In this document: piece by piece, positions 4,521 through 62,741 of the stretch | Layout: each line of letters begins with the position of its first letter | How positions within the stretch are numbered: position 1 is the stretch's first letter | NCBI GenBank assembly: GCA_934120315.1 | Contig: CAKOTX010000001.1 | Coordinates: 137,984 to 201,983 of the forward strand | Direction of reading: 5' to 3' | Length of the DNA: 64,000 nt | From: an uncultured Clostridia bacterium | GTDB taxonomy: Bacteria > Bacillota > Clostridia > TANB77 > CAG-508 | Program-made: the position numbers and the translations under genes | The notes under the pieces: model-generated | The model's database searches: none | What the model was told of the DNA's origin: nothing | The model's input: the letters and a program-made list of their open reading frames with translations, nothing else

Positions 4521-5156
4521 ATGGAATACGAAAAATCAGAAGGAGATATAAAATACAGAAGTGCATGTGAAAATGTAAAAAAAATAGTAAATGCAATTAA
4601 ATTCTTGAAAATAAAATATTATCTAGATTTTTCAAAGATTTCTAAAGAAGATGAAGAAAGATTTCAACAGTTAGAAGCAGATTTAGATAGAGTTTCAGAA
4701 GAAAATAATTTAGCTGGACTAAAATCAGAATTGATGAGCGAAGTCAATGCAAAATATGGTCAAAGGAATAATGATGGAGAGCCACAGCCTAAATTTGTTG
4801 ATGATAAATTAATGGCATGCTATGGAGTTATAGATGTTCAAAAAGATGTATTGTCAAAAGGAAAAATAAAAAAAGCAATAAAATGTCAAGAAATATTAAA
4901 ACAATATATCGAAGAATTAGATTCAGAAGAATACAGAAAACTTATAGTTAATTATAAAAGAAGCAAATTAGGGGAATTAAGTAAAACAAATGAAGTTGTA
5001 CATGAAAATAATGAACAATGGATGAAAAAACTGAAATTATGTAGTAGAGAAGAACTAGCAACTCAGAGAAAAGATGCGATGGGAGTCATAAATTTGATCA
5101 GAATAGGAAAACAAAATACACAAGAATTAGAAAGTAGAGAAGAACTAGAAGTATAA
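4521..5156 (+). CDS. hypothetical protein, charged/coiled-coil
   Basis: 211-aa ORF with strong RBS GAAGGAGA. No recognisable motif. Confidence 0.5.
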   Translation: MEYEKSEGDIKYRSACENVKKIVNAIKFLKIKYYLDFSKISKEDEERFQQLEADLDRVSEENNLAGLKSELMSEVNAKYGQRNNDGEPQPKFVDDKLMACYGVIDVQKDVLSKGKIKKAIKCQEILKQYIEELDSEEYRKLIVNYKRSKLGELSKTNEVVHENNEQWMKKLKLCSREELATQRKDAMGVINLIRIGKQNTQELESREELEV

Positions 5157-5176
5157 TAACATAGGAGGAAATAAAA

Positions 5177-5617
5177 TTGGATAGAGCATATGAAGAAGCT
5201 TTTGCTGAAATAGATGAGATATTTAAAATTATGCCGATAGATTTATTAAGTAAAATTCCGGCACAATTTAGGCAAATGATTTCAGAAAATAAAGCAAGAG
5301 ATTATGATGTTAGAATACAAGAACCTTTAGATGAAAGAAATCTAAAAGGAGAAACTGTTGCAATATTAGGACTTATTTATAGAGATTTTTTATCAAGTCC
5401 AGAAGAAAGAGACGAGCTTCAGAAAAGAGATTCTGAAGAATTAGATAGAATTGAAAAAGAAAAAAATGAACAATATGATATTGAAAATGTATTTTCAAAG
5501 AGAAAAAATAAACAAAATGAAGACAGTGAAAGCTCAACAGAGTTAGTTGTTTATAAGGAAAAAGGATTTTTTAGAAAGATATTTAATTTCTTTAAAAACT
5601 TTTTTATAAAAAATTAA
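5177..5617 (+). CDS. hypothetical protein with TTG start; acidic, with an amphipathic Phe/Lys-rich C-terminus
   Basis: AGGAGG sits 8 nt before the TTG. The C-terminus reads GFFRKIFNFFKNFFIKN. Confidence 0.5.
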   Translation: MDRAYEEAFAEIDEIFKIMPIDLLSKIPAQFRQMISENKARDYDVRIQEPLDERNLKGETVAILGLIYRDFLSSPEERDELQKRDSEELDRIEKEKNEQYDIENVFSKRKNKQNEDSESSTELVVYKEKGFFRKIFNFFKNFFIKN

Positions 5618-5821: not shown

Positions 5822-6493
5822 ATGGGAAAATTATTTGTAATAGATGGAACAGATGGAAGTGGAAAACAAACACAATTTGCTAAATTAGAAGAAAGATTAA
5901 CAAAAGATGGAGTGGATTATAAAACAGTTAGTTTTCCAAATTATGATTCACCAAGTTCTTCATTAGTAAAAATGTATTTATCAGGTGAATTCGGAAAAAA
6001 TGCAAAAGATGTTAGTCCATATATAGCTTCTAGTTTCTATGCAGCAGATAGATATGCAACATTTAAAACAGGATATAAAGAATATTATGACAATGGAGGA
6101 ATTATATTAGCAGACAGATATACAACAGCCAATATGGTTCATCAAGCAGGCAAAATTGCAGATAAAACAGAAAGAAAAAAGTTTTTAGATTGGTTATGTG
6201 ATTTTGAATTTAATATGTATGGATTACCAGTTCCAACAGAAGTATTTTTCTTAAATATGCCAGTTGAAAAATCTTTAGAATTGATAAAAAACAGAGAAAA
6301 TAAATTTACACATCAAGCTCAAAAAGATATACATGAGAGTGATCCAAATCACTTAATTGATGCATATCATGCTGCATGCGATGTTGCTAAAGAGTATAAT
6401 TGGTATGAAATAAAATGTATGAATGGAGATAAAATAAGAACTATAGAAGATATTCATGAAGAGATATATAATGAAGTAAAAAAACATATATAA
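5822..6493 (+). CDS. thymidylate kinase-family (Tmk-like) nucleoside monophosphate kinase
   Basis: P-loop IDGTDGSGKQTQ, a DRY-like motif AADRY, and the overall Tmk length (223 aa). Confidence 0.6.
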   Translation: MGKLFVIDGTDGSGKQTQFAKLEERLTKDGVDYKTVSFPNYDSPSSSLVKMYLSGEFGKNAKDVSPYIASSFYAADRYATFKTGYKEYYDNGGIILADRYTTANMVHQAGKIADKTERKKFLDWLCDFEFNMYGLPVPTEVFFLNMPVEKSLELIKNRENKFTHQAQKDIHESDPNHLIDAYHAACDVAKEYNWYEIKCMNGDKIRTIEDIHEEIYNEVKKHI

Positions 6494-6617
6494 TAGCAAA
6501 AATGAAATAACAAGAAAAAACGAGCAAAAAAGAGTAAAATAATGCAAAAACATTCAAAACGCGGAAATAAATTGACCTAATTTGACTGCCAAAAGCTAGA
6601 AAAAGCAAAAACAGAAT

Positions 6618-6645
6618 TTGAAAAATTTCCTAAATTTGGTATAAT
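6618..6645 (+). promoter_or_regulatory. strong sigma-A promoter (TTGAAA-16-TGGTATAAT, extended -10) driving the non-coding unit
   Basis: ttgaaaaatttcctaaatttggtataat. No ORF downstream for about 580 nt. Confidence 0.55.
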
Positions 6646-6652
6646 AAATATC

Positions 6653-7208
6653 GATGGTGCATTATTCTAGTCGTACTATTTATTGTGAGGGTGGGGCTAA
6701 AAATCCACTAAAGGGCATACCGATGAAACTTCTTGTTTGTGCGCGAACTGCCAGGTTTGTGTGTGAGTAGGAAGGAAGAGGTGTGGGTATTATATAATGG
6801 CATATATAAAATCCCATATTTCGTTGAGGCTTAAATTGCATTTTAAGTATAACCTATGTTGAGTGCCAAGACACAAAATACATAGTGTAGCCTGTCTTGA
6901 GTGAATGTATTGGGATTGTGATACTATGAAATTACATTTGCAAAAAGGACTAACAATAAATTAAGTATGTTAAGGAAAACTTCTAGAATGTTTGCTTTAA
7001 AAAGCATAGAAATCTGAGGATTAAGGTACGGACTTAAGTGGCGATCTAGTGTCTTCTGAAATATGTAGATGTTCTTTTAAATGGAAACAGCTATGTAGTA
7101 ATACATAGTAAAGAATAGAGAAATTCAACTAGACCTAAACCGTAAAATTTACTTAGGTTTTACCATCTTGATTTGAATAAAATATAGAGCGACCTTAGGT
7201 CGCCTTTT
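6653..7208 (+). ncRNA. ole: large structured ncRNA; candidate OLE (ornate, large, extremophilic) RNA
   Basis: About 560 nt with no ORF of at least 60 aa in frame with a credible start. It is locally GC-enriched (for example gtgagggtggggctaaaaatccactaaagggcataccgatgaaac and gtgtgtgagtaggaaggaagaggtgtggg). It has its own promoter and an intrinsic terminator, and lies directly upstream of a small 4-TM membrane protein. This is the canonical ole-oapA arrangement of anaerobic Firmicutes. Confidence 0.5.
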
Positions 7209-7215
7209 ATTTACA
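7187..7215 (+). terminator. intrinsic terminator ending the ncRNA
   Basis: GCGACC-TTAG-GGTCGC followed by CTTTTATTT. It sits immediately before the RBS of the gene at 7233. Confidence 0.6.
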
Positions 7216-7232
7216 AAAAGGAGAAAGATAAA

Positions 7233-7754
7233 ATGGCAAAAAAGAAAGAAAAAGAACACTCGAAATGGGAATGGTTTATTGAAGTATGTATAATAACATT
7301 TGTTTTATCTATTTGTTTTTCATACATATCAACAAATGGAGTGTCACACTTAAATTTAGTTGCATCAATATTTATATTAATTGCTGTAATTGCTATAGGA
7401 ATTATATTTGATATTATAGGTGTAGCAGTAACGGTGGCAAATGAACATGAATTTCATGCTAAAGCAACCAAAAAAGTAGATGGTGCTAAAACATCATTAA
7501 AGTTAATAAAAAATGCTTCTAAAGTAGCTAATATTTGTGCTGATGTAATAGGAGATATCTGTGGGGTATTAAGTGGTGCAATAAGTGCAATGATAGCTGC
7601 TAAAATTGCTGAAAAGACAGGAACTAATCTACAATTTGTTATAAGTGCATTAGTTGCCTCATTAACAGTTGGAGGTAAAGCTTTAGGTAAAGAAGTTGCA
7701 AATAAAAATTCTACAAATATTGTACACTTTGTAGGAAAAATATTAAAAAAATAG
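7233..7754 (+). CDS. oapA: small four-TM membrane protein; candidate OapA (OLE-associated protein A)
   Basis: 173 aa with four hydrophobic helices (WFIEVCIITFVLSICF; LVASIFILIAVIAIGIIFDIIGVAV; ICADVIGDICGVLSGAISAMIAA; FVISALVASLTVGG). RBS AAAGGAGA. Lies immediately downstream of the large ncRNA. Confidence 0.5.
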   Translation: MAKKKEKEHSKWEWFIEVCIITFVLSICFSYISTNGVSHLNLVASIFILIAVIAIGIIFDIIGVAVTVANEHEFHAKATKKVDGAKTSLKLIKNASKVANICADVIGDICGVLSGAISAMIAAKIAEKTGTNLQFVISALVASLTVGGKALGKEVANKNSTNIVHFVGKILKK

Positions 7755-7790
7755 AGTTAAACGATTTAATTCGTTTAACTCTATTTTTTT
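7754..7790. terminator. bidirectional terminator between convergent genes
   Basis: AGAGTTAAACGA-tttaat-TCGTTTAACTCT followed by T7. Confidence 0.6.
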
Positions 7791-8769
7791 AACGTTCAGA
7801 ATTATCTGATATTTCATTAGATTGAGTAATATTTGAATTTGATTTTTCTTGTTGTTCTACAAGAGCTTTTATGAATTCTTGTTTACAAGACTTAGTATAT
7901 TCAAAAGCAGATGAACTAGATGAATTTGTATATTCAAAAAGTGCTCTGTAATAAGTTAAACCAGTGTTTATTGCATAACCAAGTTCTGTATTATTTGTAA
8001 AAGAATTTGTTCCTTTTTCATTAACTTCAGCATTTTCAGAATATGCATTAACATATTCATTATCCCAATAAGTTACTTGTTCTGATAAAAGATTTTCTTT
8101 ATCTTTACTAACAGAAATATTCAAAAGACTTCCTCCGTAAATTTCTTTATTATCTTTTGAACTTAGAGAATATCTAACTATTTTATCTCCATTTTCTGCA
8201 GTATCCTCATATAAAGAAAAATCTGAAATTTGCTTAAGAAAAGAGATGTTTTCAGCAGATACTTGTTCTTCATGTGATTTATTGTATTCTGTTGCATATA
8301 CACTTTTTACATAATTCAAAACTTTATCAGGAGTTGTTAAAGAATTGATAATTTCGCTAGTTTCTTCAATTTTAGCTTCATGAAGTTCATTTTCATCTAT
8401 TTTTAGACTATCTCTAAAATCTTTTGTTTTATTTGAATCTTGAGATGTTGCTTCACTTCTAGATATACCTGCTGGCAATAAAGGCTGATTTTTTTGAAAT
8501 TGCATACCTGCTAAAAAAGAAGAAATAGATAATACTCCTGCAGCAAGACCAACTTTTATTCTATTAAATTTTTTCTTGTTTTCTAGCATAAGCTTTTTTT
8601 GTTCTTTAATATATAAATCTTTTCTTTCTTCTGGGGATAATTCTCTATTATGTTTCTTTTCCCAATATTTTATAGCTTTTAAAGTATTTTGTTTGGCCTT
8701 ATTTTTCATATATCTTTTTAAAGGTCCAATATTCTTTTGTTTTCTTTTATTTTTATCCATATTATTCAC
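7789..8769 (-). CDS. hypothetical membrane-anchored protein with a basic cytoplasmic N-terminus, one TM and an extracytoplasmic Ser/Asn/Glu-rich domain
   Basis: 326 aa. The TM segment is VGLAAGVLSISSFLAGMQF. RBS AGGTGA. Confidence 0.55.
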   Translation of the reverse strand: MNNMDKNKRKQKNIGPLKRYMKNKAKQNTLKAIKYWEKKHNRELSPEERKDLYIKEQKKLMLENKKKFNRIKVGLAAGVLSISSFLAGMQFQKNQPLLPAGISRSEATSQDSNKTKDFRDSLKIDENELHEAKIEETSEIINSLTTPDKVLNYVKSVYATEYNKSHEEQVSAENISFLKQISDFSLYEDTAENGDKIVRYSLSSKDNKEIYGGSLLNISVSKDKENLLSEQVTYWDNEYVNAYSENAEVNEKGTNSFTNNTELGYAINTGLTYYRALFEYTNSSSSSAFEYTKSCKQEFIKALVEQQEKSNSNITQSNEISDNSER

Positions 8770-8881
8770 CTAAAAATATTATATCAAATAATTATTTTTT
8801 GTCAATATAATATTAAATTTGCACAATTTATGTAAATGTGATAAAATGTAAATATGAAATAACTTGTAGGAGGTTACTAAT

Positions 8882-9184
8882 ATGAAAAAAACTTTGGCTA
8901 GTCTGGTACGGACACTTCTAGCAATAGCAATTATTGCTATATCTTTTAAGCTCTTCAGCTCGGCTTGGAGCTGGGAGGTATGGGCTCCAAATAATGACTT
9001 GGGTTTCGCAATGGTATGTTTCCTATATTGGGGAGCAGCACTAGGAAGTTTGGCTGGAGTATTTGGCATATCGCCTGTATTCTGGAGTATACTTTTAGGT
9101 GGGCTCGAGATAAAATTGGGGATTGCTACGCAGAAGCAAGCTCAAGCAGACATAAAAAAGTGGGAGGACAAATTCATATGGTAA
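8882..9184 (+). CDS. small membrane protein (hypothetical) of markedly higher GC than its surroundings
   Basis: 100 aa with 2-3 TM segments. RBS GGAGGT. The promoter is TTGCAC-17-TAAAAT upstream. Confidence 0.55.
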   Translation: MKKTLASLVRTLLAIAIIAISFKLFSSAWSWEVWAPNNDLGFAMVCFLYWGAALGSLAGVFGISPVFWSILLGGLEIKLGIATQKQAQADIKKWEDKFIW

Positions 9185-9190
9185 ATGAAA

Positions 9191-9222
9191 GGAGGGTGCA
9201 ATGCACCCTCTTCTATTTTTGT
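9191..9222. terminator. bidirectional terminator between the small membrane gene and ruvA
   Basis: GAGGGTGCA-a-TGCACCCTC followed by TTCTATTTTT. Confidence 0.6.
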
Positions 9223-9824
9223 GTTAGTAAAATTAATCCTTTTTTGATTAATTCTTCAACGGATAATTCATCAACAATAAGATGAGTAAAAGCTTTTTCA
9301 ATATCTTTTCTTGAATAACCAAGAACCATAAGTCCAGAAATTGCTTCTTGAACATTTTCATTAGTTTTAGAAGATTTTAATTTAGCATTTTCTAATTTTT
9401 CTTCATCTAATTCAGATTGTTCAGCTTTTAGTTTATCTTTTAATTCTAATATAATTCTTTGAGCAGATTTGGTTCCAATTCCAGGAACTTGTGTCAATAA
9501 TTTAACATTGTTTGAGATAACTGCAATTGCAAATTCTGATGGTTCGATACAAGAAAGCATAACAAGAGCGCTTTTAGCTCCAACTCCGCTAACTCCAATA
9601 AGTAATTCAAACATTCTTAATTGTTCTTGAGTCTTAAAACCATATATACTAATATCGTCTTCTCTTACTTTTACATATGTAAATACTTTAACGATATCGT
9701 TTATTTCTCCTATACTTTCAATATTATTTTGAGACATAAAAATTTTATAGCCTAATCCATTAATATCTACAACGATATAATTACTTGATTTCATTTCTAA
9801 TGATCCTTTTATATATGCAAACAT
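9213..9824 (-). CDS. ruvA: Holliday junction branch-migration complex subunit RuvA
   Basis: 203 aa. N-terminal OB-fold MFAYIKG...IVVDINGLGYKI, and a helix-hairpin-helix pair LIGVSGVGAKSALVML / LTQVPGIGTKSAQRIILEL. Confidence 0.9.
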   Translation of the reverse strand: MFAYIKGSLEMKSSNYIVVDINGLGYKIFMSQNNIESIGEINDIVKVFTYVKVREDDISIYGFKTQEQLRMFELLIGVSGVGAKSALVMLSCIEPSEFAIAVISNNVKLLTQVPGIGTKSAQRIILELKDKLKAEQSELDEEKLENAKLKSSKTNENVQEAISGLMVLGYSRKDIEKAFTHLIVDELSVEELIKKGLILLTQK

Positions 9825-11730: not shown

Positions 11731-11780
11731 AAAATTAAAAAATGTCAATAATGTTAATAAGTAGAAAAGGAAATACAATT

Positions 11781-12134
11781 ATGAAGTTAAAAATGAAACT
11801 TGTTGTAGGCTTATTGGCAGGAATAATATGTGGACTTTTTGGAACAGGTGGTGGAATGCTTCTTGTTCCTTATTTTATTTATATCTTAAAAATAGATGCA
11901 AAAGAGGCAAGAGCAACCTCACTTTTTTGCATGTTAATAATGGTAATTGTTAGTGGAATATTTTATTATAAAAGCAATTATATTAATTGGAACTCTGGAA
12001 TATTGTGTGCAATTGGAGGCTGTGTAGGGGGATTTTTAGGTGCAAAAATTTTAAAAAAGGTTCCAGATTATATATTAAAAATTATGTTTTTGATTTTTAT
12101 CTTATATTATTCTTATAGAATGTTATTTTTATAG
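11781..12134 (+). CDS. TauE/SafE-family (DUF81) sulfite/anion exporter, N-terminal half-size subunit
   Basis: 4-TM protein with the Gly-rich motif GLFGTGGGMLLVPYF. RBS AAAGGA. Confidence 0.65.
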   Translation: MKLKMKLVVGLLAGIICGLFGTGGGMLLVPYFIYILKIDAKEARATSLFCMLIMVIVSGIFYYKSNYINWNSGILCAIGGCVGGFLGAKILKKVPDYILKIMFLIFILYYSYRMLFL

Positions 12135-12145
12135 TGGGAGTTACT

Positions 12146-12535
12146 ATGATTCAAATATTAATAGGTGTAGTTGCAGGAATATTTAGTGGTATTGGAATGG
12201 GTGGAGGAACAATATTGATTTTTTTACTTACAACATTTGGTGGACTTGAACAACATATTGCACAAGCAACAAATATGATATATTTTATTCCAACTGCAAT
12301 TTCTGCAATTATAGTGAATTACAAAAATAAGAAAATAAATACAAAATTGGCACTTTTTACATCTGTTTTTGGTGCACTTGGAGCGATAATTGGTGCCAAT
12401 ATTTCTGTACATACAGATGTACAAAAATTAAGAAAATTGTTTGGGATTTTTTTATTAGCAATTGCCATTCATGAAATATATACCTTAATAAAACAGTATA
12501 AACAAAATAAAAAAAGACATACTAAAATCAGTTAA
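12146..12535 (+). CDS. TauE/SafE-family exporter, C-terminal half-size subunit (separately translated)
   Basis: Motif GIGMGGGTILIF. Its own RBS GGGAG lies 7 nt before the ATG. It begins 12 nt after the stop of the first half. Confidence 0.65.
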   Translation: MIQILIGVVAGIFSGIGMGGGTILIFLLTTFGGLEQHIAQATNMIYFIPTAISAIIVNYKNKKINTKLALFTSVFGALGAIIGANISVHTDVQKLRKLFGIFLLAIAIHEIYTLIKQYKQNKKRHTKIS

Positions 12536-25521: not shown

Positions 25522-25935
25522 GTGCCAACAATTAATCAATTAGTAAGAAAAGGAAGACAAACTTCAAAGGCAAAATCTACAGCACCAGCATTACAACATG
25601 GATGGAACTCAAAAAACAAAACATTAACAAATAACAGAGCTCCACAAAAGAGAGGTGTATGTACAGTTGTTAAAACAGTAACACCTAAAAAGCCAAACTC
25701 AGCTTTAAGAAAAGTTGCCAGAGTAAGACTTTCAAATGGTTATGAAGTAACATCTTATATCCCAGGGATAGGACATAACCTACAAGAACACAGTGTAGTT
25801 CTAATCAGAGGAGGAAGAGTAAAAGACCTTCCAGGTGTTAGATACCATATTATCAGAGGAACATTAGATACTGCAGGAGTTAAAGACAGAATGCAAGGTC
25901 GTTCAAAATATGGAGCTAAACGTCCCAAAAAATAA
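25522..25935 (+). CDS. rpsL: 30S ribosomal protein S12 (GTG start)
   Basis: [12 protein letters not shown]...[10 protein letters not shown]. Confidence 0.95.
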
Positions 25936-26091
25936 TGAATAATTTAAAAGATTAGTGCACACAATTTACTAAATTAAGGTACTTAAATTTAGAATAGATT
26001 ATGTAGCACTATACGGGAAGGAAAAACGAAATCTTTCCAGAGTAACTTAGACATTTGTTTAAATGTCAAAAAAGAAAAGGAGTGAAGAATA

Positions 26092-26562
26092 GTGCCAAGA
26101 AGAGGATTTATAGCAAAAAGAGATGTATTACCAGATCCAATTTATAATAGCAAAGTTGTTACAAAATTAATTAACAATATAATGTTAGATGGTAAAAAAT
26201 CAGTTGCTCAAGGCATAGTATATGATGCATTCGATATCATAAAAGAAAAAGAAGGAAAAAATCCATTAGAAGTATTTGAAGCAGCATTAGAAAATGTTAT
26301 GCCAGTTCTTGAAGTAAAAGCAAGAAGAGTAGGTGGAGCAACATACCAAGTACCATTAGAAATTAGACCAGAAAGAAGACAAACTTTAGGTTTAAGATGG
26401 TTAGTAACATATGCTAGAAACAGACATGAAAAAACTATGGCTGAAAAACTAGCAGCTGAAATTATAGATGCAGTAAACGGAAACGGTGGAGCATTCAAGA
26501 AGAAAGAAGATACACATAGAATGGCAGAAGCTAATAAAGCATTTGCACATTATAAATGGTAA
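26092..26562 (+). CDS. rpsG: 30S ribosomal protein S7 (GTG start)
   Basis: [19 protein letters not shown]. Confidence 0.95.
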
Positions 26563-26580
26563 AAAGGGGGAAGAAATAAA

Positions 26581-28665
26581 ATGGCAGGAAGAGCATACCC
26601 ATTAGAAAGAACAAGAAATATAGGAATAATGGCTCACATTGATGCTGGTAAAACAACAACAACAGAGAGAATATTATTCTATACAGGAAAAACACATAAA
26701 ATAGGTGAAGTTCACGAAGGTGCAGCAACAATGGACTGGATGGAACAAGAGCAAGAAAGAGGTATCACAATTACATCTGCAGCAACAACATGTTTCTGGA
26801 AAAATAATAGAATCAATATTATTGATACTCCAGGTCACGTTGACTTTACAGTTGAAGTACAAAGATCTTTAAGAGTACTTGACGGAGCTGTTACAGTATT
26901 AGCTGCAAAAGGTGGAGTTCAACCTCAAACAGAAACTGTTTGGAGACAAGCAGATAAATACCAAGTACCAAGAATGGTATATGTAAATAAAATGGACATC
27001 GTTGGAGCAAACTTTATGCTTTGCGTTGACCAATTAAAAAATAGATTACGTGCAAATCCAGTACCTGTTCAATTACCAATTGGAGCTGAAGATAACTTCA
27101 AAGGAATTGTTGATTTAATTAAAATGAGAGCATTCATCCATAAAGATGATTTAGGAAAAGAAATTGAAGAAACAGACATTCCAGAAGATATGTTAGAAGA
27201 AGCTAAAAAGTGGAGAACAACAATGGTTGAAGCAGCATGTGAACAAGATGAAGAATTAATGATGAAATATTTAGACGGTGAAGAACCATCTGAAGAAGAA
27301 ATCAAAAAGGCCATAAGAAAAGGAACAATAGCAAATCAAATCGTTCCTGTAACATGTGGATCTTCATATAAAAATAAAGGTGTACAAGAATTATTAAACG
27401 CAATAGTTGACTATATGCCATCACCATTAGATATACCACATATCAAAGGTGAAACATTAGATGGTGAACCAACAGAAGCTAAAACTTCTGATAGTGAACC
27501 ATTTGCAGCTTTAGCATTTAAAATTGCAACAGATCCATTCGTAGGAAAACTATGTTTCTTTAGAGTATATTCAGGAACATTAGAAACAGGATCAACAGTT
27601 TTAAATTCAAGCAAAGATAAGAAAGAAAGAATCGGAAGAATTCTACAAATGCACTCAAATCACAGAGAAGATATTGAAAAAGTATATGCTGGTGATATTG
27701 CAGCTGCAGTAGGATTAAAAGATGTTACAACTGGAAATACTTTATGTGATCCAGAACATCCAATAATTCTAGAATCAATGGAATTCCCAGAACCAGTTAT
27801 TGATATAGCTATTGAGCCAAAAGATAAAGCAGCTCAAGAAAAAATGGGAATAGCTTTAGCAAAATTAGCTGAAGAAGACCCAACATTCAAAGCTTACACA
27901 AATCAAGAAACAGGACAAACAATTATCGCTGGTATGGGTGAATTACACCTAGATATCATCGTTGATAGATTAAAGAGAGAATTCCATGTAGAATGTAATG
28001 TAGGTAAACCACAAGTTGCTTACAAAGAAACAATCAGAAATAAAGTAAAAGTTCAAGGTAAATTTATTCGTCAATCTGGTGGTAAAGGACAATACGGTGA
28101 TGTATGGTTTGAAATGGAACCACTAGAACCAGGAAAAGGAATTGAATTCGAAAGCAAAATCGTTGGAGGAGCAGTTCCAAAAGAATATATTAAACCAATT
28201 GAACAAGGAATGAGAGAAGCTGCTGAAAGCGGTATCTTAGCTGGATATCCAGTAATTGACTTCAAAGTATCATTAGTTGATGGTTCTTACCATGAAGTTG
28301 ACTCATCAGAAATGGCATTCAAGATTGCTGCATCTATGGCATTCAAAGAAGGATGTAAACAAGCTAAATCAGTTATCTTAGAGCCAATCATGAAAGTTGA
28401 AATAACAGTTCCAGAAGAATACATGGGAGATGTTATTGGAGATGTAAACTCAAGACGTGGTAGAATGGAAGGAATGGAAGCAAATGATGGAATGCAAGAA
28501 ATTAGAGCATTCATACCATTATCAGAAATGTTTGGTTATGCTACAGACTTACGTTCAAAAACACAAGGTAGAGGAACATACTCTATGGAACCATCTCATT
28601 ATGAAGAAGTTCCAAAATCAGTACTTGAAACAATTGTTGCTTCAAGAGCTAAAAAAGAAGACTAA
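26581..28665 (+). CDS. fusA: elongation factor G
   Basis: [20 protein letters not shown]; 694 aa. Confidence 0.95.
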
Positions 28666-28675
28666 TTTCTTAAAA

Positions 28676-28716
28676 ACACTTGCATTTTCTGGCAAAATGT
28701 TATAAAATGCAAGTGT
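28676..28716 (+). promoter_or_regulatory. 13-bp perfect-stem hairpin in the fusA-tuf spacer (processing, pause or attenuation element)
   Basis: ACACTTGCATTTT-(15 nt)-AAAATGCAAGTGT, with no U-tract after it. Confidence 0.4.
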
Positions 28717-28788
28717 ATAAAGAAGTTATTATTATTAAAAAATATAAAAAAGGCCAGTAAATGGCAAAAAATAAGGAGGAATTTAAAA

Positions 28789-29991
28789 ATGGCAAAAGCA
28801 AAATTTGAAAGAACAAAGCCACACGTTAACATCGGTACTATCGGACACGTAGACCATGGAAAAACAACAACAACAGCTGCTATCACAAAATACTTATCAT
28901 TATTAGGAAAAGCTAAATTCGAAGCTTATGATCAAATCGATGGAGCTCCAGAAGAAAAAGCAAGAGGAATCACAATTAACACAGCTCACGTTGAATATGA
29001 AACAGACAACAGACACTATGCACACGTAGACTGCCCAGGACATGCTGACTATGTAAAGAACATGATCACAGGTGCAGCTCAAATGGATGGTGCAATATTA
29101 GTTGTATCAGCAGCTGATGGACCAATGCCTCAAACAAGAGAACACATCTTATTAGCTAGACAAGTAGGTGTAAAATACATCGTTGTTTACTTAAATAAAT
29201 GTGATATGGTTGATGATCCAGAATTATTAGAATTAGTTGAAATGGAAGTTAGAGACTTATTAACAGAATATGGTTTCCCAGGAGACGAAATTCCAGTTGT
29301 AAAAGGATCTTCATTAAAAGTATTAGAGAGCACATCAACAGATCCTAACGATCCTGTATATGCTCCAATGAAAGAATTAATGGATGCAGTTGATAGCTAT
29401 ATCCCAACACCAGAAAGACCAATCGATCAACCATTCTTAATGCCAGTTGAAGACGTATTCACAATTACAGGACGTGGAACAGTTGCAACAGGTAGAGTAG
29501 AAAGAGGAATCGTTAAAGTTTCTGATGAAGTTGAAATCATCGGTTTATCAACAGAAAGAAAGAAAACTGTTGTTACAGGTGTAGAAATGTTCAGAAAATT
29601 ATTAGACCAAGCTGAAGCTGGAGATAACATTGGAACATTATTAAGAGGTATTGATAGAAAAGACATCGAAAGAGGTCAAGTACTATGTAAACCAGGAACA
29701 ATTCATCCACATACAAAATTTAAATCAGAAGTATACGTTCTAACAAAAGAAGAAGGTGGACGTCATACACCATTCTTCAATGGATATAGACCACAATTCT
29801 ATTTCAGAACAACAGACGTAACAGGTGTTATTGAATTACCTGCTGGAACAGAAATGGTTATGCCAGGTGATAACGTATCAATGACAATTGAATTAATCAC
29901 ACCTATCGCTATCGAAAAAGGATTAAGATTCGCTATTCGTGAAGGTGGTAGAACAGTTGGTTCAGGTGTTGTTGCTGACATTATCGAATAA
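28789..29991 (+). CDS. tuf: elongation factor Tu
   Basis: [13 protein letters not shown]; 400 aa. Confidence 0.95.
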
Positions 29992-53929: not shown

Positions 53930-54285
53930 ATTTTCCTCCTTAAAAATTAACTTATTCTATTTTACTATAACATATAAAAAAGTCAAGGAAAATAGAATAA
54001 AAAATTTGAATAAAAAACATTGACAAACTTGTCTTAAATATGTTATTATAAATAATGTATGACTTTAAATAAAAATGGATATTTGTGCCATTTTTAGAAA
54101 GAAAAAAATTTAATTCACAATTGTTAAAAATTAGAAAAATAAGAATTAGATATATGGAAGTAAAATGTAGGAGTTGTGGAAGCAGACAATATCTGAAAAT
54201 TTATGAAAATATATAATAAGAAGAGATTTTTCTAAATAAAATAAAACATTTAAATCTGCTTAATATTTTTTAAGGAGTGATTTGT

Positions 54286-57200
54286 TTGAAAATCAAAGAT
54301 GTTCAGTTCGGAAGAACAACTCGTAAAGACTTTTCAAAAGTTGGAGATTACATTGAAATGCCAAACCTAATAAAAGTTCAAAAAGACTCTTATGATTGGT
54401 TTGTAGAAGAAGGACTTGGAGAAGTATTAAAAGATATTTCACCAATAATTGACTACTCAGGAAATTTAGTTCTAGAATTTTTCGATTATTACATGGAAGA
54501 CAAAACAAAATATACTGAAGAAGAAGCAAAAGAAAGAGATGCTACATATTCAACAAGATTACACGTAAAAGTAAGATTAATTAACCGTGAATCTGGAGAA
54601 ATAAAAGAGCAAGAAATTTATTTAGGTGATTTTCCATTAATGACAGAAAGTGGAACATTCATTATTAATGGTGCAGAAAGAGTTGTAGTAAGCCAATTAG
54701 TTCGTTCACCAGGATGCTACTATGACGAGATATTTGACACAAAAACAGGAAAGAAAACTTATACATCAACAGTAATGCCATTAAGAGGTGCTTGGATTGA
54801 ATACGAAACAGATGGAAATGATATGTTCTGGGTACGTGTTGATAGAACAAGAAAAATACCAGTAACAACATTATTAAGAGCCATTGGATTAGTATCAGAT
54901 GACCAAATCAGATCATTATTTGGAGAAGAAAATTTATTAGAAACAACAATTCAAAAAGATCCAATTAAAACAAACGAAGAAGCATTAATAGAAATTTATA
55001 AGAAATTAAGACCAGGAGAATTACCAACAGTAGAAGCCGCAAGAAGCTTATTTAATGGATTATTCTTTGATAATAGAAGATATGATTTAGCAAAAGTAGG
55101 AAGATATAAATTCAACCAAAAATTAAGCATTGCAAATAGAATCAAAAATAAAGTTGCATTTGATGACATCATGGATAAAGAAACTGGAGAAGTATTTGTA
55201 GCAGCTGGAGAAATAATTACACCAGAAGTTGCAGAAGATATTCAAAATGCAGGAATAAATATAGTAGATTTAAAAATTGGTGACAAAAAAGTTAGAGTAA
55301 TAGGAAATGGAATTGTAAATATTCACAAAGTATTACCAAATGTAGATTTAAGTAGCTTACATTTCAAAGAAGATGTAAATTATGAAGTATTGAAAAACAT
55401 TATGGAAAATACAAGTGAAGAAGATTTAGTAAGTACAATTAAAGAAAGATATGATGAATTAGTACCAAAACATATTACAACAGAAGATATGATTGCATCA
55501 GTAAACTACTTATTAAATATGTATAATGGATTAGGAAAGAAAGATGATATAGATCATTTAGCTAACCGTAGAATAAGATGTGTTGGAGAATTATTACAAA
55601 ATCAATTTAGAATTGGTTTAACAAGACTTGAAAGAGTTGTTCGTGAAAGAATGACAATACAAGACTTAGATGTTATAACACCACAAACATTAATTAATAC
55701 CAAACCAATAACATCATCAATAAGAGAATTCTTTGGAAGTTCACAATTATCACAATTCATGGACCAAACAAACCCACTTTCAGAATTAACACATAAAAGA
55801 AGAATTTCAGCATTAGGACCTGGAGGACTTTCAAGAGAAAGAGCTGGATTCGAGGTACGTGATATTCACTATACACACTATGGTAGACTATGTCCAATTG
55901 AATCTCCAGAAGGACCAAACATTGGATTAATTTCAGCATTGTCATCATTTGCAAATATTAATGAATATGGATTTATCGAAACACCATATAGAAAAATAGA
56001 TCCAGAAACACATAGAGTTACAGATATTGTTGAATACATGAGTGCAGATGTAGAAGATAATTATACAATAGCTCAAGCATCTGAACCAATGGATGAAAAC
56101 GGAGAATTTATTAACAAACGTGTACGTGTAAGACGTAGAAATGAAATTATCGAAGTAGATAAAAATGAAGTTCAATATATAGATGTATCACCAAAACAAT
56201 TAGTATCAATAGCTGCAGCCATGATACCATTCTTAGAGAACGATGATGCTAAGAGATCATTGATGGGATCAAACATGCAACGTCAAGCTGTTCCATTAAT
56301 GACAACAGAAGCTCCAATAATTGCAACAGGTATAGAATACAGAGCTGCAATGGATTCAGGAATATTAGTTCTAGCTGAAGACGATGGAGTTGTAGAAAAA
56401 GTTACTAGTGATAGTATTACAATGAAATATAATAATGGAAAAACTGTTATCCACAAATTACGTAAGTTCAAGAGAACAAATGGTGGAACATGTATAAACC
56501 AAAGACCTATAGTAAGAAAAGGTGAAATGGTTAAAAAAGGTGATGCCTTAGCAGATGGACCTGCAACAAAAGATGGAGAAATGGCATTAGGTAAAAATAT
56601 GCTTGTTGCATTCTCTACATGGGAAGGTTATAACTACGAGGATGCTATTCTTTTAAATGAAAGATTAGTACAAGAAGATATATTCACATCAATTCACATT
56701 GAAGAATATGATTGTGAATGCCGTGATACAAAACTAGGTGCAGAAGAAATCACAAGAGATATTCCAAATGTTGGTGATGATGCATTAAAAGACCTAGATG
56801 AAAACGGAATTATAAGAATTGGTGCAGAAGTAAGACCTGGAGATATATTAGTTGGTAAAGTAACTCCAAAAGGAGAAACAGAACTAACAGCAGAAGAAAG
56901 ATTACTTCGTGCTATATTTGGAGAAAAAGCTAGAGAGGTAAGAGATACATCACTTCGTGTACCACATGGTGAAGCTGGAACAATAGTTGATGTAAAAATC
57001 TTTACAAGAGATAATTCAGAAGAATTAGGCCCTGGAGTAAATCAAGTAATTAGATGTTATATTGCAACTAAGAGAAAAATATCAGTTGGTGATAAAATGG
57101 CTGGACGTCATGGTAACAAAGGTGTAATTTCAAGAATATTACCAAAAGAAGATATGCCATTCTTACCAGATGGAACACCAATAGACATTTTATTAAACCC

Positions 57201-58002
57201 ATTAGGTATACCATCTCGTATGAACTTAGGACAAATCCTAGAAGTTCACTTAGGTGCTGCTGCAAGAGCATTAGGATACAAAGTATCAACACCAGTATTT
57301 GATGGTGCATCAGAACCAGAAATAGAAGAATTATTAAAAGAAGCTGGATTAACACCAGATGGAAAACAAACTTTATATGATGGTAGAACAGGAGAAGCAT
57401 TTGACAAACCAATTACAGTTGGTGTTATGTATATGTTAAAGCTACATCACTTAGTTGATGATAAAATACATGCTCGTTCAACTGGACCATACTCATTAGT
57501 AACACAACAACCACTTGGAGGTAAAGCTCAATTCGGTGGACAACGTTTCGGAGAGATGGAAGTTTGGGCACTAGAAGCATATGGTGCAGCATATACATTA
57601 CAAGAAATTTTAACAGTAAAATCAGATGATACTGTTGGACGTGTTAAAGCATATGAAGCAATTGTTAAAGGTGAAAATATTCCTGAACCAGGAGTTCCAG
57701 AAAGCTTTAAAGTTCTTGTAAAAGAATTACAAGCATTAGGATTAGACATTAAATTATATTCTGAAAATAATGAAGAACTAGAATTAAAAGAACATATTGA
57801 AGACGGAATTGATTATGATGAAACATCAGAAGGAAAAACATTAACAGAAGATGATGTTTTAATTCATGAAGACTTAGAAGATGGATATTCTGAAGAAGAT
57901 GAAGAAATGGCTGATGATGAAGACGAAGATAATGATGAATTATTTAATGATGATGATTTAGATGATGATGAAGATATCTACGGAAAAGATGATATGGAAT
58001 AA
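54286..58002 (+). CDS. rpoB: DNA-directed RNA polymerase subunit beta
   Basis: Probable TTG start 8 nt after AAGGAG. Conserved beta-subunit motifs throughout. About 45-aa acidic C-terminal tail ([24 protein letters not shown]...). Confidence 0.95.
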
Positions 58003-58024
58003 ATTAATTAAATAGATTTTCAAA

Positions 58025-58076
58025 AGTATTTAGGCGACGGAAAGGTTTGCAAGAGCAGAGGTTAGACCTAAATACT
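58025..58076 (+). promoter_or_regulatory. GC-rich hairpin in the rpoB-rpoC spacer (candidate RNase III or processing site)
   Basis: AGTATTTAGG-(32 nt GC-rich)-CCTAAATACT. Confidence 0.4.
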
Positions 58077-58123
58077 GTTTGAAAATTACCCAAAAAATTT
58101 AAGAAGGGGGACATCTAATAAAG

Positions 58124-61100: not shown

Positions 61101-61681
61101 AAGCTGCACAACCACTTATTGAAGGTTCTATAAACCCAGCTGAAATTTTAGCAATAAAAGGTCCAGAGGGAGTTTATGAATATGTAATTTCTGAAATTCA
61201 AAAAGCATATAGAAGCCAAGGTGTTGATATTAATGATAAACACGTTGAAGTAATTGCAAGACAAATGCTTAGAAAGATGAGAGTTGAGGATGGTGGAGAT
61301 ACAGATATGTTCCCAGGATCTTTGGTGGATATGTATGAATTCTCAGATAAGAATAAAGCTGCTATTGCAGAAGGAAAACGTCCTGCAACTGGTAAGAGAG
61401 CATTACTAGGAATTACAAAAGCTTCTCTTGCAACAGATAGCTTCTTATCAGCTGCATCATTCCAAGAAACAACAAGAGTATTAACAGAAGCAGCAATTAA
61501 AGGTAAGGAAGATGATTTATTAGGATTAAAAGAAAATGTAATCATTGGTAAATTAATTCCTGCTGGTACTGGTATGAAGAGATATCAAGATGTTCAAATA
61601 AAAGTTGAAGGTCAAGATGAAGTTACTACTAGTGAAGAGACAGAAGAACAAGCTGAAACAGAAAATAATGATATAGCATAA
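58124..61681 (+). CDS. rpoC: DNA-directed RNA polymerase subunit beta'
   Basis: Zinc-binding [23 protein letters not shown]. Catalytic NADFDGDQM. Confidence 0.95.
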
Positions 61682-62420: not shown

Positions 62421-62741
62421 TTGGACAAAGATTTGAGCTATTCGTATTCTATTGAAGAAATAGAAAAGTTTAGTGAAAAATTGAAAATCCCAGTTGAACA
62501 AGTAGCAATACTTGCTGCTATTATACAGAGGGCAGCAGAAGACTTGAAGTTGGAAGAACCTGAGTGGCTACAGAAAGATTTTGATATTAGTAGTTTTGAC
62601 TTAGGCCAATCAATGGAGAGTTATAAAGGACTTGTAATTAATAGGAATGTGGATATGGAGATAGTCTTAGATAGATTGGCTGTCGAAAATCCAGAAAAAG
62701 TGGTAGATGTTAAAAATTTAGAGAATCTGTTTTGTGATTAA
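62421..62741 (+). CDS. hypothetical acidic protein (106 aa) with probable TTG start, preceded by an 11-codon uORF
   Basis: GAGGT 4 nt before the TTG. Upstream is GGAGG-tttttat-ATG encoding MYNIYVRRDNS then stop. Higher GC than its surroundings. Confidence 0.4.
   Translation: MDKDLSYSYSIEEIEKFSEKLKIPVEQVAILAAIIQRAAEDLKLEEPEWLQKDFDISSFDLGQSMESYKGLVINRNVDMEIVLDRLAVENPEKVVDVKNLENLFCD

What the first reader, a model, noticed from the sequence alone, without database searches (positions are those of the whole stretch)
6618..7754. About 560-nt ORF-free, GC-enriched transcript unit with its own promoter and terminator, directly upstream of a 4-TM small membrane protein: candidate OLE RNA / OapA ribonucleoprotein locus
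Between the Tmk-like gene and the gene at 7233 there are about 740 nt with no credible ORF. Inside this stretch is a strong extended -10 promoter (TTGAAA-16-TGGTATAAT at 6618-6645) and, about 560 nt later, a clean intrinsic terminator (GCGACC-TTAG-GGTCGC plus a U-tract at 7189-7215). The enclosed sequence is far more GC-rich and purine-patterned than the flanking intergenic DNA, for example GTGAGGGTGGGGCTAAAAATCCACTAAAGGGCATACCGATGAAAC and GTGTGTGAGTAGGAAGGAAGAGGTGTGGG. This is what a large structured RNA looks like in a 28% GC genome. The gene immediately downstream encodes a 173-aa protein with four transmembrane helices. OLE RNA is about 600 nt, is restricted to anaerobic or extremophilic Firmicutes, and is almost always followed by oapA, which encodes a small 4-TM protein that binds it. 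The position downstream of a Tmk-like gene, rather than in the ispA/dxs neighbourhood seen in Bacillus, would be an unusual context. If it is not OLE, it is an unclassified large ncRNA, which would be of higher interest.
Basis: partly seen in the sequence, partly recalled or inferred. Interest (0 to 1): 0.8.

Follow-up and report, generated by a model that had tools for sequence, protein, structure and literature searches.

The report
OLE RNA gene with oapA partner

Summary
Window 6638-7182 (+) matches the Rfam OLE model (RF01071) end to end at 306.2 bits (gathering score 50, E 3e-86). 120 of 128 model pairs are standard pairs here. An alignment of 69 OLE copies from related genomes shows clear covariation: 52 pairs changed on both sides, against 33 in shuffles and 10-22 in slid controls.

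The 173-aa gene at 7233-7754 is oapA:
- 40% identity (E 9e-30) to a published OapA sequence
- four membrane helices and an invariant DxxxD motif (DVIGD 104-108)

The promoter (6618-6645) sits at a fixed distance from the OLE 5' end in nearly all relatives. The terminator hairpin (7189-7203) is real, but only 16 of 77 relatives have one. It leaves no room for an oapA promoter, so oapA must be read through it.

The Tmk-like upstream gene recurs in 37 of 80 related loci. The RNA is a short form: P7 is short, the distal P9 with its GGCC kissing loop is missing, and the P13 tip is truncated. This resembles the published 'variant 1'. The family is known; interest is low to moderate.

The parts
5822..6493 (+). 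Tmk-like (thymidylate kinase family) gene directly upstream of ole; a recurrent neighbour in this clade
   Evidence: Pfam PF02223, 58.6 bits (cut-off 27); it falls below the NCBIfam dTMP-kinase equivalog cut-offs. A homolog lies directly upstream of ole, on the same strand, in 37 of 80 related loci.
6618..6645 (+). Dedicated sigma-A-type promoter of ole: -35 TTGAAA (6618-6623), extended -10 TGgTATAAT (6637-6645). The predicted transcription start is about 6652-6653, at the conserved GAUGGUGCA.
   Evidence: 11 of 12 consensus matches plus TG. Position and hexamers are conserved in nearly all 68 relatives. The start site is inferred, not measured.
6638..7182 (+). OLE RNA gene (Rfam RF01071), short form. 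The Rfam match begins in the -10 box; the RNA itself probably begins near 6653.
   Evidence: 306.2 bits, E 3.3e-86, model 1-616. 120 of 128 model pairs are standard pairs. Covariation in 69 sequences.
6664..6670 (+). 5' strand of a long-range helix, AUUCUAG, complementary to CUAGAAU at 6983-6989. It is a candidate for the P3 helix, which is not in the Rfam model.
   Evidence: Read from the sequence. Both strands are invariant in the 69 sequences, and the minimum-free-energy fold pairs them. Because nothing varies, there is no covariation evidence. The P3 assignment is by position, from the description in PMC12265935.
6690..6709 (+). P4 hairpin with the conserved A-rich loop CUAAAAAU, one of the RNA-RNA dimer contacts in the cryo-EM structures
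   Evidence: Model helix 1 is 100% paired and the loop is invariant. The dimer role is taken from PMC12265935.
6729..6773 (+). P5/P5.1 long hairpin; its loop UGCCAG carries GCCA, complementary to UGGC in the P6.1 loop (AAUGGC, about 6798-6803)
   Evidence: helix 2: 20 pairs, 8 changed on both sides. Both loops are invariant. The kissing-loop role is from PMC12265935.
6829..6846 (+). P7, much shortened: 29 model positions are replaced by 2 nt
   Evidence: cmscan alignment and alignment with the C. acetobutylicum OLE.
6891..6950 (+). P9, truncated. The distal arm (P9.3/L9.3, with the GGCC palindromic kissing loop) is absent: 46 model positions are replaced by 5 nt.
   Evidence: The window and its 24 closest relatives lack the arm; 44 further relatives keep it, all with GGCC.
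7051..7072 (+). P13, shortened: a 5-bp stem with one U-U mismatch and an 8-nt loop UGAAAUAU. The 5' single-nucleotide bulge and the 3 bp that form the OapB site in H. halodurans are missing.
   Evidence: cmscan alignment. In the close relatives the loop core varies as GAAA, GUGA, GCAA, GUAA and GAGA, that is GNRA. OapB site definition: PMC7936274.
7189..7212 (+). Intrinsic-terminator-like hairpin GCGACC-TTA-GGTCGC plus a U tract, between ole and oapA
   Evidence: It is found in only 16 of 77 relatives. It ends 7 nt before the oapA ribosome-binding site, so there is no room for a separate oapA promoter.
7220..7223 (+). oapA ribosome-binding site, GGAG, 9 nt before the ATG
   Evidence: Read from the sequence.
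7233..7754 (+). oapA, the OLE-associated membrane protein A: 173 aa, four transmembrane helices, DVIGD at residues 104-108
7744..7791 (.). Long AT-rich inverted repeat after oapA, a terminator-like hairpin shared with the convergent gene 7789-8769 (-)

Best explanation
This is an ole-oapA locus, the genes for the OLE ribonucleoprotein of Bacillota.

A dedicated sigma-A-type promoter (6618-6645) starts transcription at about 6653. It produces an OLE RNA of roughly 530-560 nt that folds into the family's conserved multi-helix architecture. Part of the transcription stops at the hairpin at 7189-7212 and releases free OLE RNA. The rest reads through and is the only evident source of oapA mRNA. That arrangement would give much RNA and little protein.

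OapA is a four-helix membrane protein with a CNNM/CorB-like fold and an invariant DxxxD motif. By analogy with H. halodurans, it binds OLE RNA and anchors it at or in the membrane. There the particle helps the cell cope with stress; in H. halodurans the stresses are alcohols, cold, excess Mg2+ and poor carbon sources.

This copy is a reduced form. P7 is short, the distal P9 arm with its GGCC dimerising kissing loop is gone, and the OapB site on P13 is cut back. This fits the published 'variant 1' of small-genome gut Clostridia, which also tend to lack OapB and OapC.

Shown here: family membership of the RNA and the protein, the conserved structure, the conserved promoter, the synteny and the truncations. 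Inferred: the transcription start, termination and read-through, RNA-protein binding, membrane location and physiological role.
For: RNA:
- Rfam OLE at 306.2 bits (gathering 50), full model coverage; the only family with E <= 1 in 6400-9300.
- 120 of 128 model pairs are standard pairs in the window.
- On 69 related sequences, 90.6% of cells pair, against 33-49% when partners are slid. 52 pairs are changed on both sides, against 33.2 +/- 2.3 in shuffles (0 of 500 reach it) and 10-22 when slid.
- Minimum-free-energy z-score is -3.49.
- An OLE-homologous sequence lies directly upstream of the oapA homolog in 77 of 80 related loci by nhmmer, and the Rfam OLE model hits there in 11 of 11 loci scanned.
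- The promoter is conserved in position and sequence.

OapA:
- 40% identity over 165 aa (E 9e-30) to the OapA sequence in Supplementary Table 4 of Kretsch et al. 2025.
- D104 and D108 (the DxxxD motif) are invariant in 69 diverse family representatives.
- The protein has no proline, matching the published absence of the CNNM proline.
- It hits CNNM PF01595 below threshold (19.6 bits), and 45 of 69 relatives hit it at E <= 0.01. This is the published behaviour of OapA.

Short form. The variant description and the absence of OapB/OapC in the TANB77 and RF39 clades are from PMC11332333.
Against: - There is no expression data, so the transcript ends, the read-through and the RNA:protein ratio are inferences.
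- The terminator is absent in most relatives. The attenuator idea may therefore be local or unimportant, and plain co-transcription may be the rule.
- Function is extrapolated from one distant model organism, H. halodurans.
- The loss of the P9 kissing loop and of the canonical OapB site means the assembly could differ from the studied complexes.
- A profile built from OapA relatives finds no PDB chain by sequence, even at E <= 10. The CNNM link therefore rests on the fold and on sub-threshold Pfam scores.
- Clade membership (TANB77) could not be checked, because no GTDB taxonomy is available in these tools.
Confidence: 0.92

Rival explanations
1. The region is only a long structured 5' leader of the oapA mRNA that controls oapA expression in cis. 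It is not a separate functional RNA.
For: No promoter fits between the terminator and the oapA ribosome-binding site. Most relatives have no terminator between ole and oapA. So OLE is physically the 5' part of the oapA transcript.
Against: The sequence is a full-length member of the OLE family. In H. halodurans, OLE RNA is an abundant RNA that binds OapA, OapB and OapC and localises to the membrane (PMC12265935). About 40% of its positions are invariant across the 69 sequences, and many helices covary. That is far more conservation than known leaders need. Co-transcription and a function in trans are compatible.
Confidence: 0.04
2. It is a decaying OLE remnant in a shrinking genome. It is still recognisable by the model but no longer functional, as the lost P9 arm, short P7 and cut-back P13 might suggest.
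For: Two large deletions relative to the model and a shortened P13. At 306 bits it scores lowest among the 12 copies scanned with Rfam, where relatives score 310-359.
Against: The same short form is kept in the 24 closest relatives from distinct genomes. Compensatory changes occur in the remaining helices. The promoter is conserved. oapA is intact, with all family-invariant residues. The other dimer-contact loops (P4 A-rich loop, P5.1 GCCA, P6.1 UGGC) are invariant.
Confidence: 0.03
3. It is an unclassified large ncRNA that only superficially resembles OLE.
For: None found.
Against: E 3e-86 against the OLE model, with end-to-end coverage and the family's signature loops. A bona fide oapA lies downstream.
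Confidence: 0.005

Closest known systems
OLE RNA (Rfam RF01071) with OapA of Halalkalibacterium halodurans, the genetic and biochemical model system
   Same: Same RNA family and same order, ole then oapA on one strand. OapA has four TM helices and DxxxD. The P4 A-rich loop, the P5.1/P6.1 complementary loops, P10-P12, the four-way junction P12.2/P13/P14/P15 and the P14.1 GNRA loop (GUAA) are all present.
   Different: [quoted passage not shown] Here ole has its own conserved promoter, lies after a tmk-like gene, and is followed by convergent genes. P7 is short, distal P9 is absent, and the P13 OapB site is truncated. No OapB test was run, and no OapC or bS21 homolog lies in the 64-kb window, which says nothing about the rest of the genome.
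Clostridium acetobutylicum OLE RNA (577 nt), whose dimer was solved by cryo-EM (Kretsch et al. 2025, PMC12286853)
   Same: 58.5% identity over the 489 positions where both sequences have a base. The P4 loop and the P5.1/P6.1 loop sequences used for dimer contacts are shared.
   Different: The window lacks the P9.3 arm and its L9.3 GGCC loop, which forms the symmetric intermolecular kissing loop, bridge B3. P7 is about 30 nt shorter.
'Variant 1' OLE RNAs of the TANB77 clade (Fernando and Breaker 2024, PMC11332333)
   Same: Shorter P7 and P9 and missing nucleotides at the end of P13. The relatives are uncultured gut Clostridia MAGs, one with a 1.55-Mb chromosome. This fits the reduced-genome hosts described.
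   Different: P8 is not visibly shorter than in the Rfam model. The authors assigned variants by bit score against their own model, which I could not run. Within this clade only a sub-lineage (25 of 69) has lost the whole distal P9; I did not see that split described in the parts of the paper I read.
CNNM/CorB/CorC/MpfA Mg2+ transporters (Pfam PF01595; PDB 7M1U, 7CFG)
   Different: OapA has no CBS or CorC-HlyC domains. It has four rather than three TM helices and a DxxxD motif, and it lacks the conserved CNNM proline. It falls below the Pfam gathering score, and a family profile finds no PDB chain by sequence. It is not a member of the CNNM family as Pfam defines it.

Membership tests
OLE RNA (Rfam RF01071) | Covariance-model score above the curated gathering score, over the full model | tested here: met
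   306.2 bits against 50; model positions 1-616; E 3.3e-86.
OLE RNA (Rfam RF01071) | The conserved multi-helix secondary structure is kept by compensatory changes | tested here: met
   120 of 128 pairs are standard in the window. In 69 sequences, 52 pairs are changed on both sides, against 33.2 +/- 2.3 in shuffles and 10-22 when slid; 90.6% of cells pair, against 33-49%. Caveat: all sequences come from one clade, and the structure was projected from the Rfam model.
OLE RNA (Rfam RF01071) | Signature conserved sequences: P4 loop CUAAAAAU, P5.1 GCCA and P6.1 UGGC loops, GGAAAAC (P10), and the UUCUAG/CUAGAA long-range complement | tested here: met
   All are present in the window and invariant in the 69 sequences.
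OLE RNA (Rfam RF01071) | The gene lies immediately upstream of oapA on the same strand | tested here: met
   The OLE match ends at 7182 and oapA starts at 7233. An OLE-homologous sequence lies upstream of oapA in 77 of 80 related loci.
OLE RNA (Rfam RF01071) | The host is an anaerobic or extremophilic member of Bacillota | tested here: met
   Indirect: the 80 closest loci are all from records titled uncultured Clostridium, Clostridia, Eubacteriales, Clostridiaceae or Bacillota, except one titled only 'uncultured bacterium' (L039). Several titles point to gut samples: human (Hadza, Nepal), rabbit, chicken and goat. The window's own origin is not given.
OLE RNA (Rfam RF01071) | Full-length form: long P9 arm ending in a palindromic kissing loop (L9.3; GGCC, GAUC or AGCU), dimer bridge B3 | tested here: not met
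   46 model positions are replaced by 5 nt, and there is no GGCC in distal P9. The arm is absent when aligned with the C. acetobutylicum OLE. Published variant classes also have reduced P9, so this excludes the 'full-length' class, not the family.
OLE RNA (Rfam RF01071) | OapB site: P13 closed by a GNRA tetraloop, with a single-nucleotide bulge 3 bp below it | tested here: not met
   The window has a 5-bp stem and the loop UGAAAUAU. The bulge and the upper 3 bp are missing. A GNRA core persists and varies as GNRA in the relatives. Published for variant 1.
OLE RNA (Rfam RF01071) | A stable, abundant transcript of about 600 nt, located at the membrane | not testable with these tools
   Needs RNA-seq, a Northern blot or imaging.
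OapA (OLE-associated protein A) | Sequence similarity to an OapA named in the literature | tested here: met
   BLASTP: 40% identity, 65% positives, 165 aa, E 9e-30, against the OapA in Supplementary Table 4 of PMC12286853. That sequence was machine-read from a PDF and may carry small errors.
OapA (OLE-associated protein A) | Four predicted transmembrane helices | tested here: met
   Hydrophobic spans at about 12-37, 34-71 and 101-123. Long helices in the model at 11-38, 42-68, 95-129 and 134-158. The fourth helix falls below my hydropathy cut-off, so it rests on the model alone.
OapA (OLE-associated protein A) | DxxxD motif | tested here: met
   DVIGD at 104-108. D104 and D108 are invariant in 69 diverse representatives.
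OapA (OLE-associated protein A) | CNNM-like fold with sub-threshold PF01595 similarity and no conserved CNNM proline | tested here: met
OapA (OLE-associated protein A) | Binds OLE RNA and brings it to the membrane | not testable with these tools
   Needs binding assays or imaging.
OLE 'variant 1' (Fernando and Breaker 2024) | Shorter P7 and P9 than full-length OLE | tested here: met
OLE 'variant 1' (Fernando and Breaker 2024) | Shorter P8 | tested here: inconclusive
   P8 (6852-6883) is about as long as in the Rfam model, with 3 non-standard pairs. The authors' full-length consensus was not available.
OLE 'variant 1' (Fernando and Breaker 2024) | Bit score of 310-390 against the authors' own covariance model | not tested
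   Their model is not in these tools. The Rfam score (306) is not comparable.
OLE 'variant 1' (Fernando and Breaker 2024) | Host in the TANB77 clade, lacking OapB and OapC | not testable with these tools
   No GTDB taxonomy and no whole genome are available. No OapC or bS21 homolog was found in the 64-kb window, and there is no L7Ae-type ORF next to rpoC or rpsL. These are weak indications only.
CNNM / CorB / CorC / MpfA transporters (PF01595) | Score above the Pfam gathering threshold; CBS-pair and CorC-HlyC domains | tested here: not met
   19.6 bits against 28.4, and no other domain in 173 aa. The protein works like, or is related to, the CNNM transmembrane domain, but it is not a family member.

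The most novel reading that the evidence does not exclude
The window and its 24 closest relatives form a lineage whose OLE RNA has lost the whole P9.3/L9.3 arm. In the cryo-EM structures this arm makes one of the RNA-RNA dimer contacts (the GGCC kissing loop, bridge B3). The lineage keeps the P4, P5.1 and P6.1 contact loops, an intact OapA and a dedicated promoter. If these RNAs are functional, they are a natural experiment. Either bridge B3 and the P9 'arch' are dispensable, which would define a minimal OLE core of about 530 nt, or the particle assembles differently in these small-genome gut Clostridia. The recurrent tmk-like neighbour could also reflect a functional link to nucleotide metabolism that has not been described.
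Probability: 0.3. Interest if true: 0.4.

Novelty: already known. Interest (0 to 1): 0.25.

Why it matters
OLE RNA is one of the largest and best-conserved bacterial non-coding RNAs whose biochemical function is still unknown. Recent work proposes that it spans the membrane as a dimer. One more copy adds little, since more than 2,800 genomes are already known to carry it, and a standard Rfam scan finds this one.

What this locus adds is modest. It documents a compact natural form with its own promoter, and it lacks the P9 kissing-loop arm and the canonical OapB site. It comes from organisms reported to lack OapB and OapC. Such minimal forms are useful for deciding which parts of the RNA are essential and as smaller targets for structural work. 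For genome annotation, the 740-nt 'empty' gap should be labelled ole, and the 173-aa gene of unknown function should be labelled oapA.

Tried and rejected
- PDB sequence searches with the 173-aa protein (phmmer, E <= 1) and with a 69-sequence family profile (E <= 10) found nothing. The CNNM link had to come from the fold.
- The first AlphaFold2 run, with 30 close homologs, gave pLDDT 61.9 and was not used. A 69-sequence diverse alignment gave 93.2.
- The search for homologous proteins returned 6,605 relatives, but the 120 listed were all unnamed metagenome proteins. There was no name-based link to OapA. I took an OapA sequence from the supplement of PMC12286853 instead.
- I tested whether the ole-oapA terminator is a conserved attenuator. 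It is not: 16 of 77 relatives have one by my strict hairpin scan, which may miss weak ones.
- I looked for OapC and bS21 in the window by tblastn, using the sequences from the same supplement. No hit better than E 3.5. The small ORF after rpoC (62421-62741) has no Pfam match.
- NCBIfam and PHROGs gave nothing useful for OapA or the flanking unknown genes.
- A literature search for OLE RNA together with thymidylate kinase found no paper in the searched library.
- I did not evaluate the OapC kink-turn (J4a/5 with J6/7), because the published figure with exact positions is not held as text.
- Helix names follow PMC12265935 and were assigned by position and loop sequence, not from a figure.
Full report
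**Observation**

The stretch between the Tmk-like gene (5822-6493) and the ATG at 7233 has no ORF longer than 53 aa on either strand. It holds the best sigma-70-type site of the region: TTGAAA at 6618-6623, a 16-nt spacer and TATAAT at 6640-6645, with TG at 6637-6638. It also holds a G+C-rich hairpin, GCGACC-TTA-GGTCGC at 7189-7203, followed by CTTTTATTT.

The window is 28.5% G+C. The candidate RNA is 33.6% and its first 150 nt are 43.2%. The 560-nt unit folds more stably than 100 dinucleotide shuffles (z = -3.49). The only slip is the terminator loop, which is TTA, not TTAG.

**What the RNA is**

A scan of the whole window against Rfam 15 gives two hits at gathering level: a tRNA at 509-582 and OLE (RF01071) at 6638-7182 on the + strand. 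The OLE hit scores 306.2 bits against a gathering score of 50, with E 3.3e-86, and covers model positions 1-616. A permissive scan of 6400-9300 finds nothing else.

I projected the model's structure onto the window. Of 128 pairs, 120 are standard pairs.

**Related loci and covariation**

I fetched 80 loci that encode relatives of the downstream protein from a collection of species-representative genomes. nhmmer finds an OLE homolog directly upstream of that gene in 77 of them; the other three have the gene at or near a contig end. Rfam confirms OLE in 11 of 11 loci tested, at 310-359 bits.

I aligned 69 full-length copies (A1) and counted the projected structure on them:
- 90.6% of cells pair, against 33-49% when partners are slid by 1-3 columns.
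- 52 pairs carry changes on both sides, against 33.2 +/- 2.3 in 500 shuffles (none reach it) and 10-22 when slid.

Helices P5, P6, P6.1, P7, P9, P13, P14 and P14.1 all show compensatory changes. The caveat is that all sequences come from one clade and the structure came from the Rfam model. With a CM E-value of 1e-86, this is corroboration rather than the main evidence.

**What the protein is**

The 173-aa product has hydrophobic spans at about 12-37, 34-71 and 101-123. It has a DVIGD motif at 104-108 and no proline.

I obtained an OapA sequence from Supplementary Table 4 of Kretsch et al. 2025. BLASTP gives 40% identity over 165 residues, E 9e-30, with shared FDI..IGVA, FHA, GAK, DVIGDI.G..SG and LTVGGKA blocks.

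The family is large: 1,103 50%-identity cluster representatives at E <= 1e-3. In 69 diverse representatives D60, D104, G107, D108, G115, K149 and K153 are invariant, and 45 of them match PF01595 at E <= 0.01.

**Transcription**

The -10 box is invariant at four of its six positions (T, A, T and the final T) and is TATAAT or TATACT in every copy. Nearly all 68 relatives also have a TTG-type -35 hexamer at the right spacing, 6-9 nt before the conserved GAUGGUGCA that begins the OLE consensus. A dedicated promoter is therefore a conserved feature of ole in this clade. The 5' end of the RNA is probably set by initiation near 6653; this is inferred.

The terminator is different. A strict scan finds a hairpin plus T tract between ole and oapA in only 16 of 77 relatives. 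Many close relatives have just 27-60 nt there. In the window the T tract ends at 7212 and the GGAG ribosome-binding site is at 7220-7223, so no promoter fits in between. oapA must be expressed by read-through from the ole promoter or from further upstream.

The simplest model is one ole-oapA transcription unit. Here a leaky terminator would raise the ratio of free OLE RNA to oapA mRNA. This is inference, and its lack of conservation argues against giving it much weight.

**Which kind of OLE**

I used the helix names of Lyon and Breaker 2025 (PMC12265935), assigned by position and loop sequence. The window keeps these elements:
- the P4 hairpin with its A-rich loop CUAAAAAU
- the P5.1 loop GCCA and the complementary P6.1 loop UGGC
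- P8, P10 and P11
- the P12 helices, the four-way junction, and P14.1 with a GUAA loop
- the invariant complement AUUCUAG (6664-6670) / CUAGAAU (6983-6989), a likely P3

Three parts are reduced:
- **P7.** 29 model positions are replaced by 2 nt.
- **P9.** 46 model positions are replaced by 5 nt. An alignment with the C. acetobutylicum OLE used for cryo-EM (sequence) shows that the missing piece is the P9.3 arm with its loop ...UUUAGGCCUAAG.... Kretsch et al. show that this loop (L9.3, GGCC covarying with GAUC or AGCU) forms a symmetric intermolecular kissing loop, bridge B3 of the OLE dimer. Among the 69 aligned copies, the window and its 24 closest relatives lack the arm. The other 44 keep it, always with GGCC.
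[quoted passage not shown] Here it is a 5-bp stem with the loop UGAAAUAU. The bulge and the upper 3 bp are gone. The loop core still varies as GAAA, GUGA, GCAA, GUAA and GAGA among the close relatives, so a GNRA-type loop may persist.

These reductions match the published 'variant 1': shorter P7-P9 and loss of the nucleotides at the P13 end. It is commonest in TANB77, a clade of uncultured gut bacteria with reduced genomes that lack OapB and OapC. The relatives found here are uncultured gut Clostridia MAGs, one with a complete 1.55-Mb chromosome. I could not verify GTDB placement or run the authors' model. P8 is not visibly shorter than in the Rfam model. I therefore call it variant-1-like.

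**Context**

The upstream gene is a thymidylate-kinase-family protein (PF02223, 58.6 bits) that falls below the NCBIfam dTMP-kinase equivalog cut-offs. Its homolog sits directly upstream of ole, on the same strand, in 37 of 80 related loci. In 20 loci ruvA lies downstream, and it is convergent with oapA in 19 of them.

So the arrangement is typical of this clade. According to PMC12265935, ole typically clusters with genes for fundamental processes. I found no paper that links OLE RNA to thymidylate kinase. Whether the linkage is functional is unknown.

**Mechanism**

- Shown: RNA and protein family membership, conserved structure, promoter, synteny and truncations.
- From established knowledge of the family (PMC12265935, PMC11332333, PMC12286853): OapA binds OLE RNA and brings it to the membrane. 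OLE RNA dimerises. In H. halodurans the particle is needed under alcohol, cold, Mg2+ and carbon-source stress. Its biochemical activity is unknown.
- Inferred for this locus: the same RNP forms, probably without OapB and OapC, and without the P9 kissing loop.

**Verdict**

The element belongs to a known family, a standard Rfam scan detects it, and a similar short form is already described in the literature. I rate it already known, interest 0.25. The only modestly new points are the clean split within the clade between copies with and without the L9.3 arm, the conserved dedicated promoter, and the recurrent tmk-like neighbour.

Noticed in passing
window 8800-9220: A 100-aa small membrane protein gene (8882-9184, +) with its own promoter-like site, GGAGG ribosome-binding site and a G+C-rich terminator hairpin (about 9190-9219). 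It is 42.6% G+C in a 28.5% window. It has no Pfam, NCBIfam or PHROG match. It is absent from all 80 related loci, including L001, whose neighbouring genes are 90-99% identical. It looks like a recent insertion between oapA and ruvA.
   Followed up: partly
window 7789-8769 (-): A 326-aa protein convergent with oapA, with no Pfam, NCBIfam or PHROG match. Only L001 has a homolog (55% identity, while flanking genes are 95-99%). In several of the closest relatives ruvA follows within about 650 nt of the oapA stop (for example L016, L018, L028). It is either fast-evolving or a lineage-specific insertion.
   Followed up: partly
L080 5206-5565: The OLE copy matches window-OLE positions 2-112 and 286-531 with nothing in between. 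About 170 nt, from the 3' half of P5 through P8, are missing. It may be a more drastic natural deletion (variant-2-like) or an assembly artefact.
   Followed up: no
L042 5797-6507, and probably the other loci with 230-450 nt between OLE and the aligned part of oapA (L036, L039, L041-L049, L053-L080): In L042, OapA carries a Lys/Glu-rich N-terminal extension of about 65 aa (236 aa in total). This explains part of the larger ole-oapA spacing; about 240 nt of spacer remain.
   Followed up: partly
window 11742-12535: Two adjacent half-size TauE/SafE ORFs: 130 aa matching profile positions 124-237, then 133 aa matching positions 2-112. The C-terminal half is encoded first. It is either a split or permuted pair of half-transporters, or a rearranged gene.
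   Followed up: no
window 25522-29991 and 54277-61681: rpsL, rpsG and two long ORFs (26581-28665 and 28789-29991; fusA and tuf by position, not scanned) lie about 25 kb away from the two long ORFs at 54277-61681 (rpoB and rpoC by size and sequence, not scanned). From memory, Bacillus subtilis has them contiguous with ybxF (OapC) in between. No L7Ae-type ORF is next to either block here, and the ORF after rpoC (62421-62741) has no Pfam match.
   Followed up: partly
window 4521-5617: Two Glu/Lys-rich ORFs of unknown function (211 and 146 aa) upstream of the tmk-like gene. They are conserved in position in about 16-18 related loci but only at 30-74% identity, far below their neighbours.
   Followed up: no
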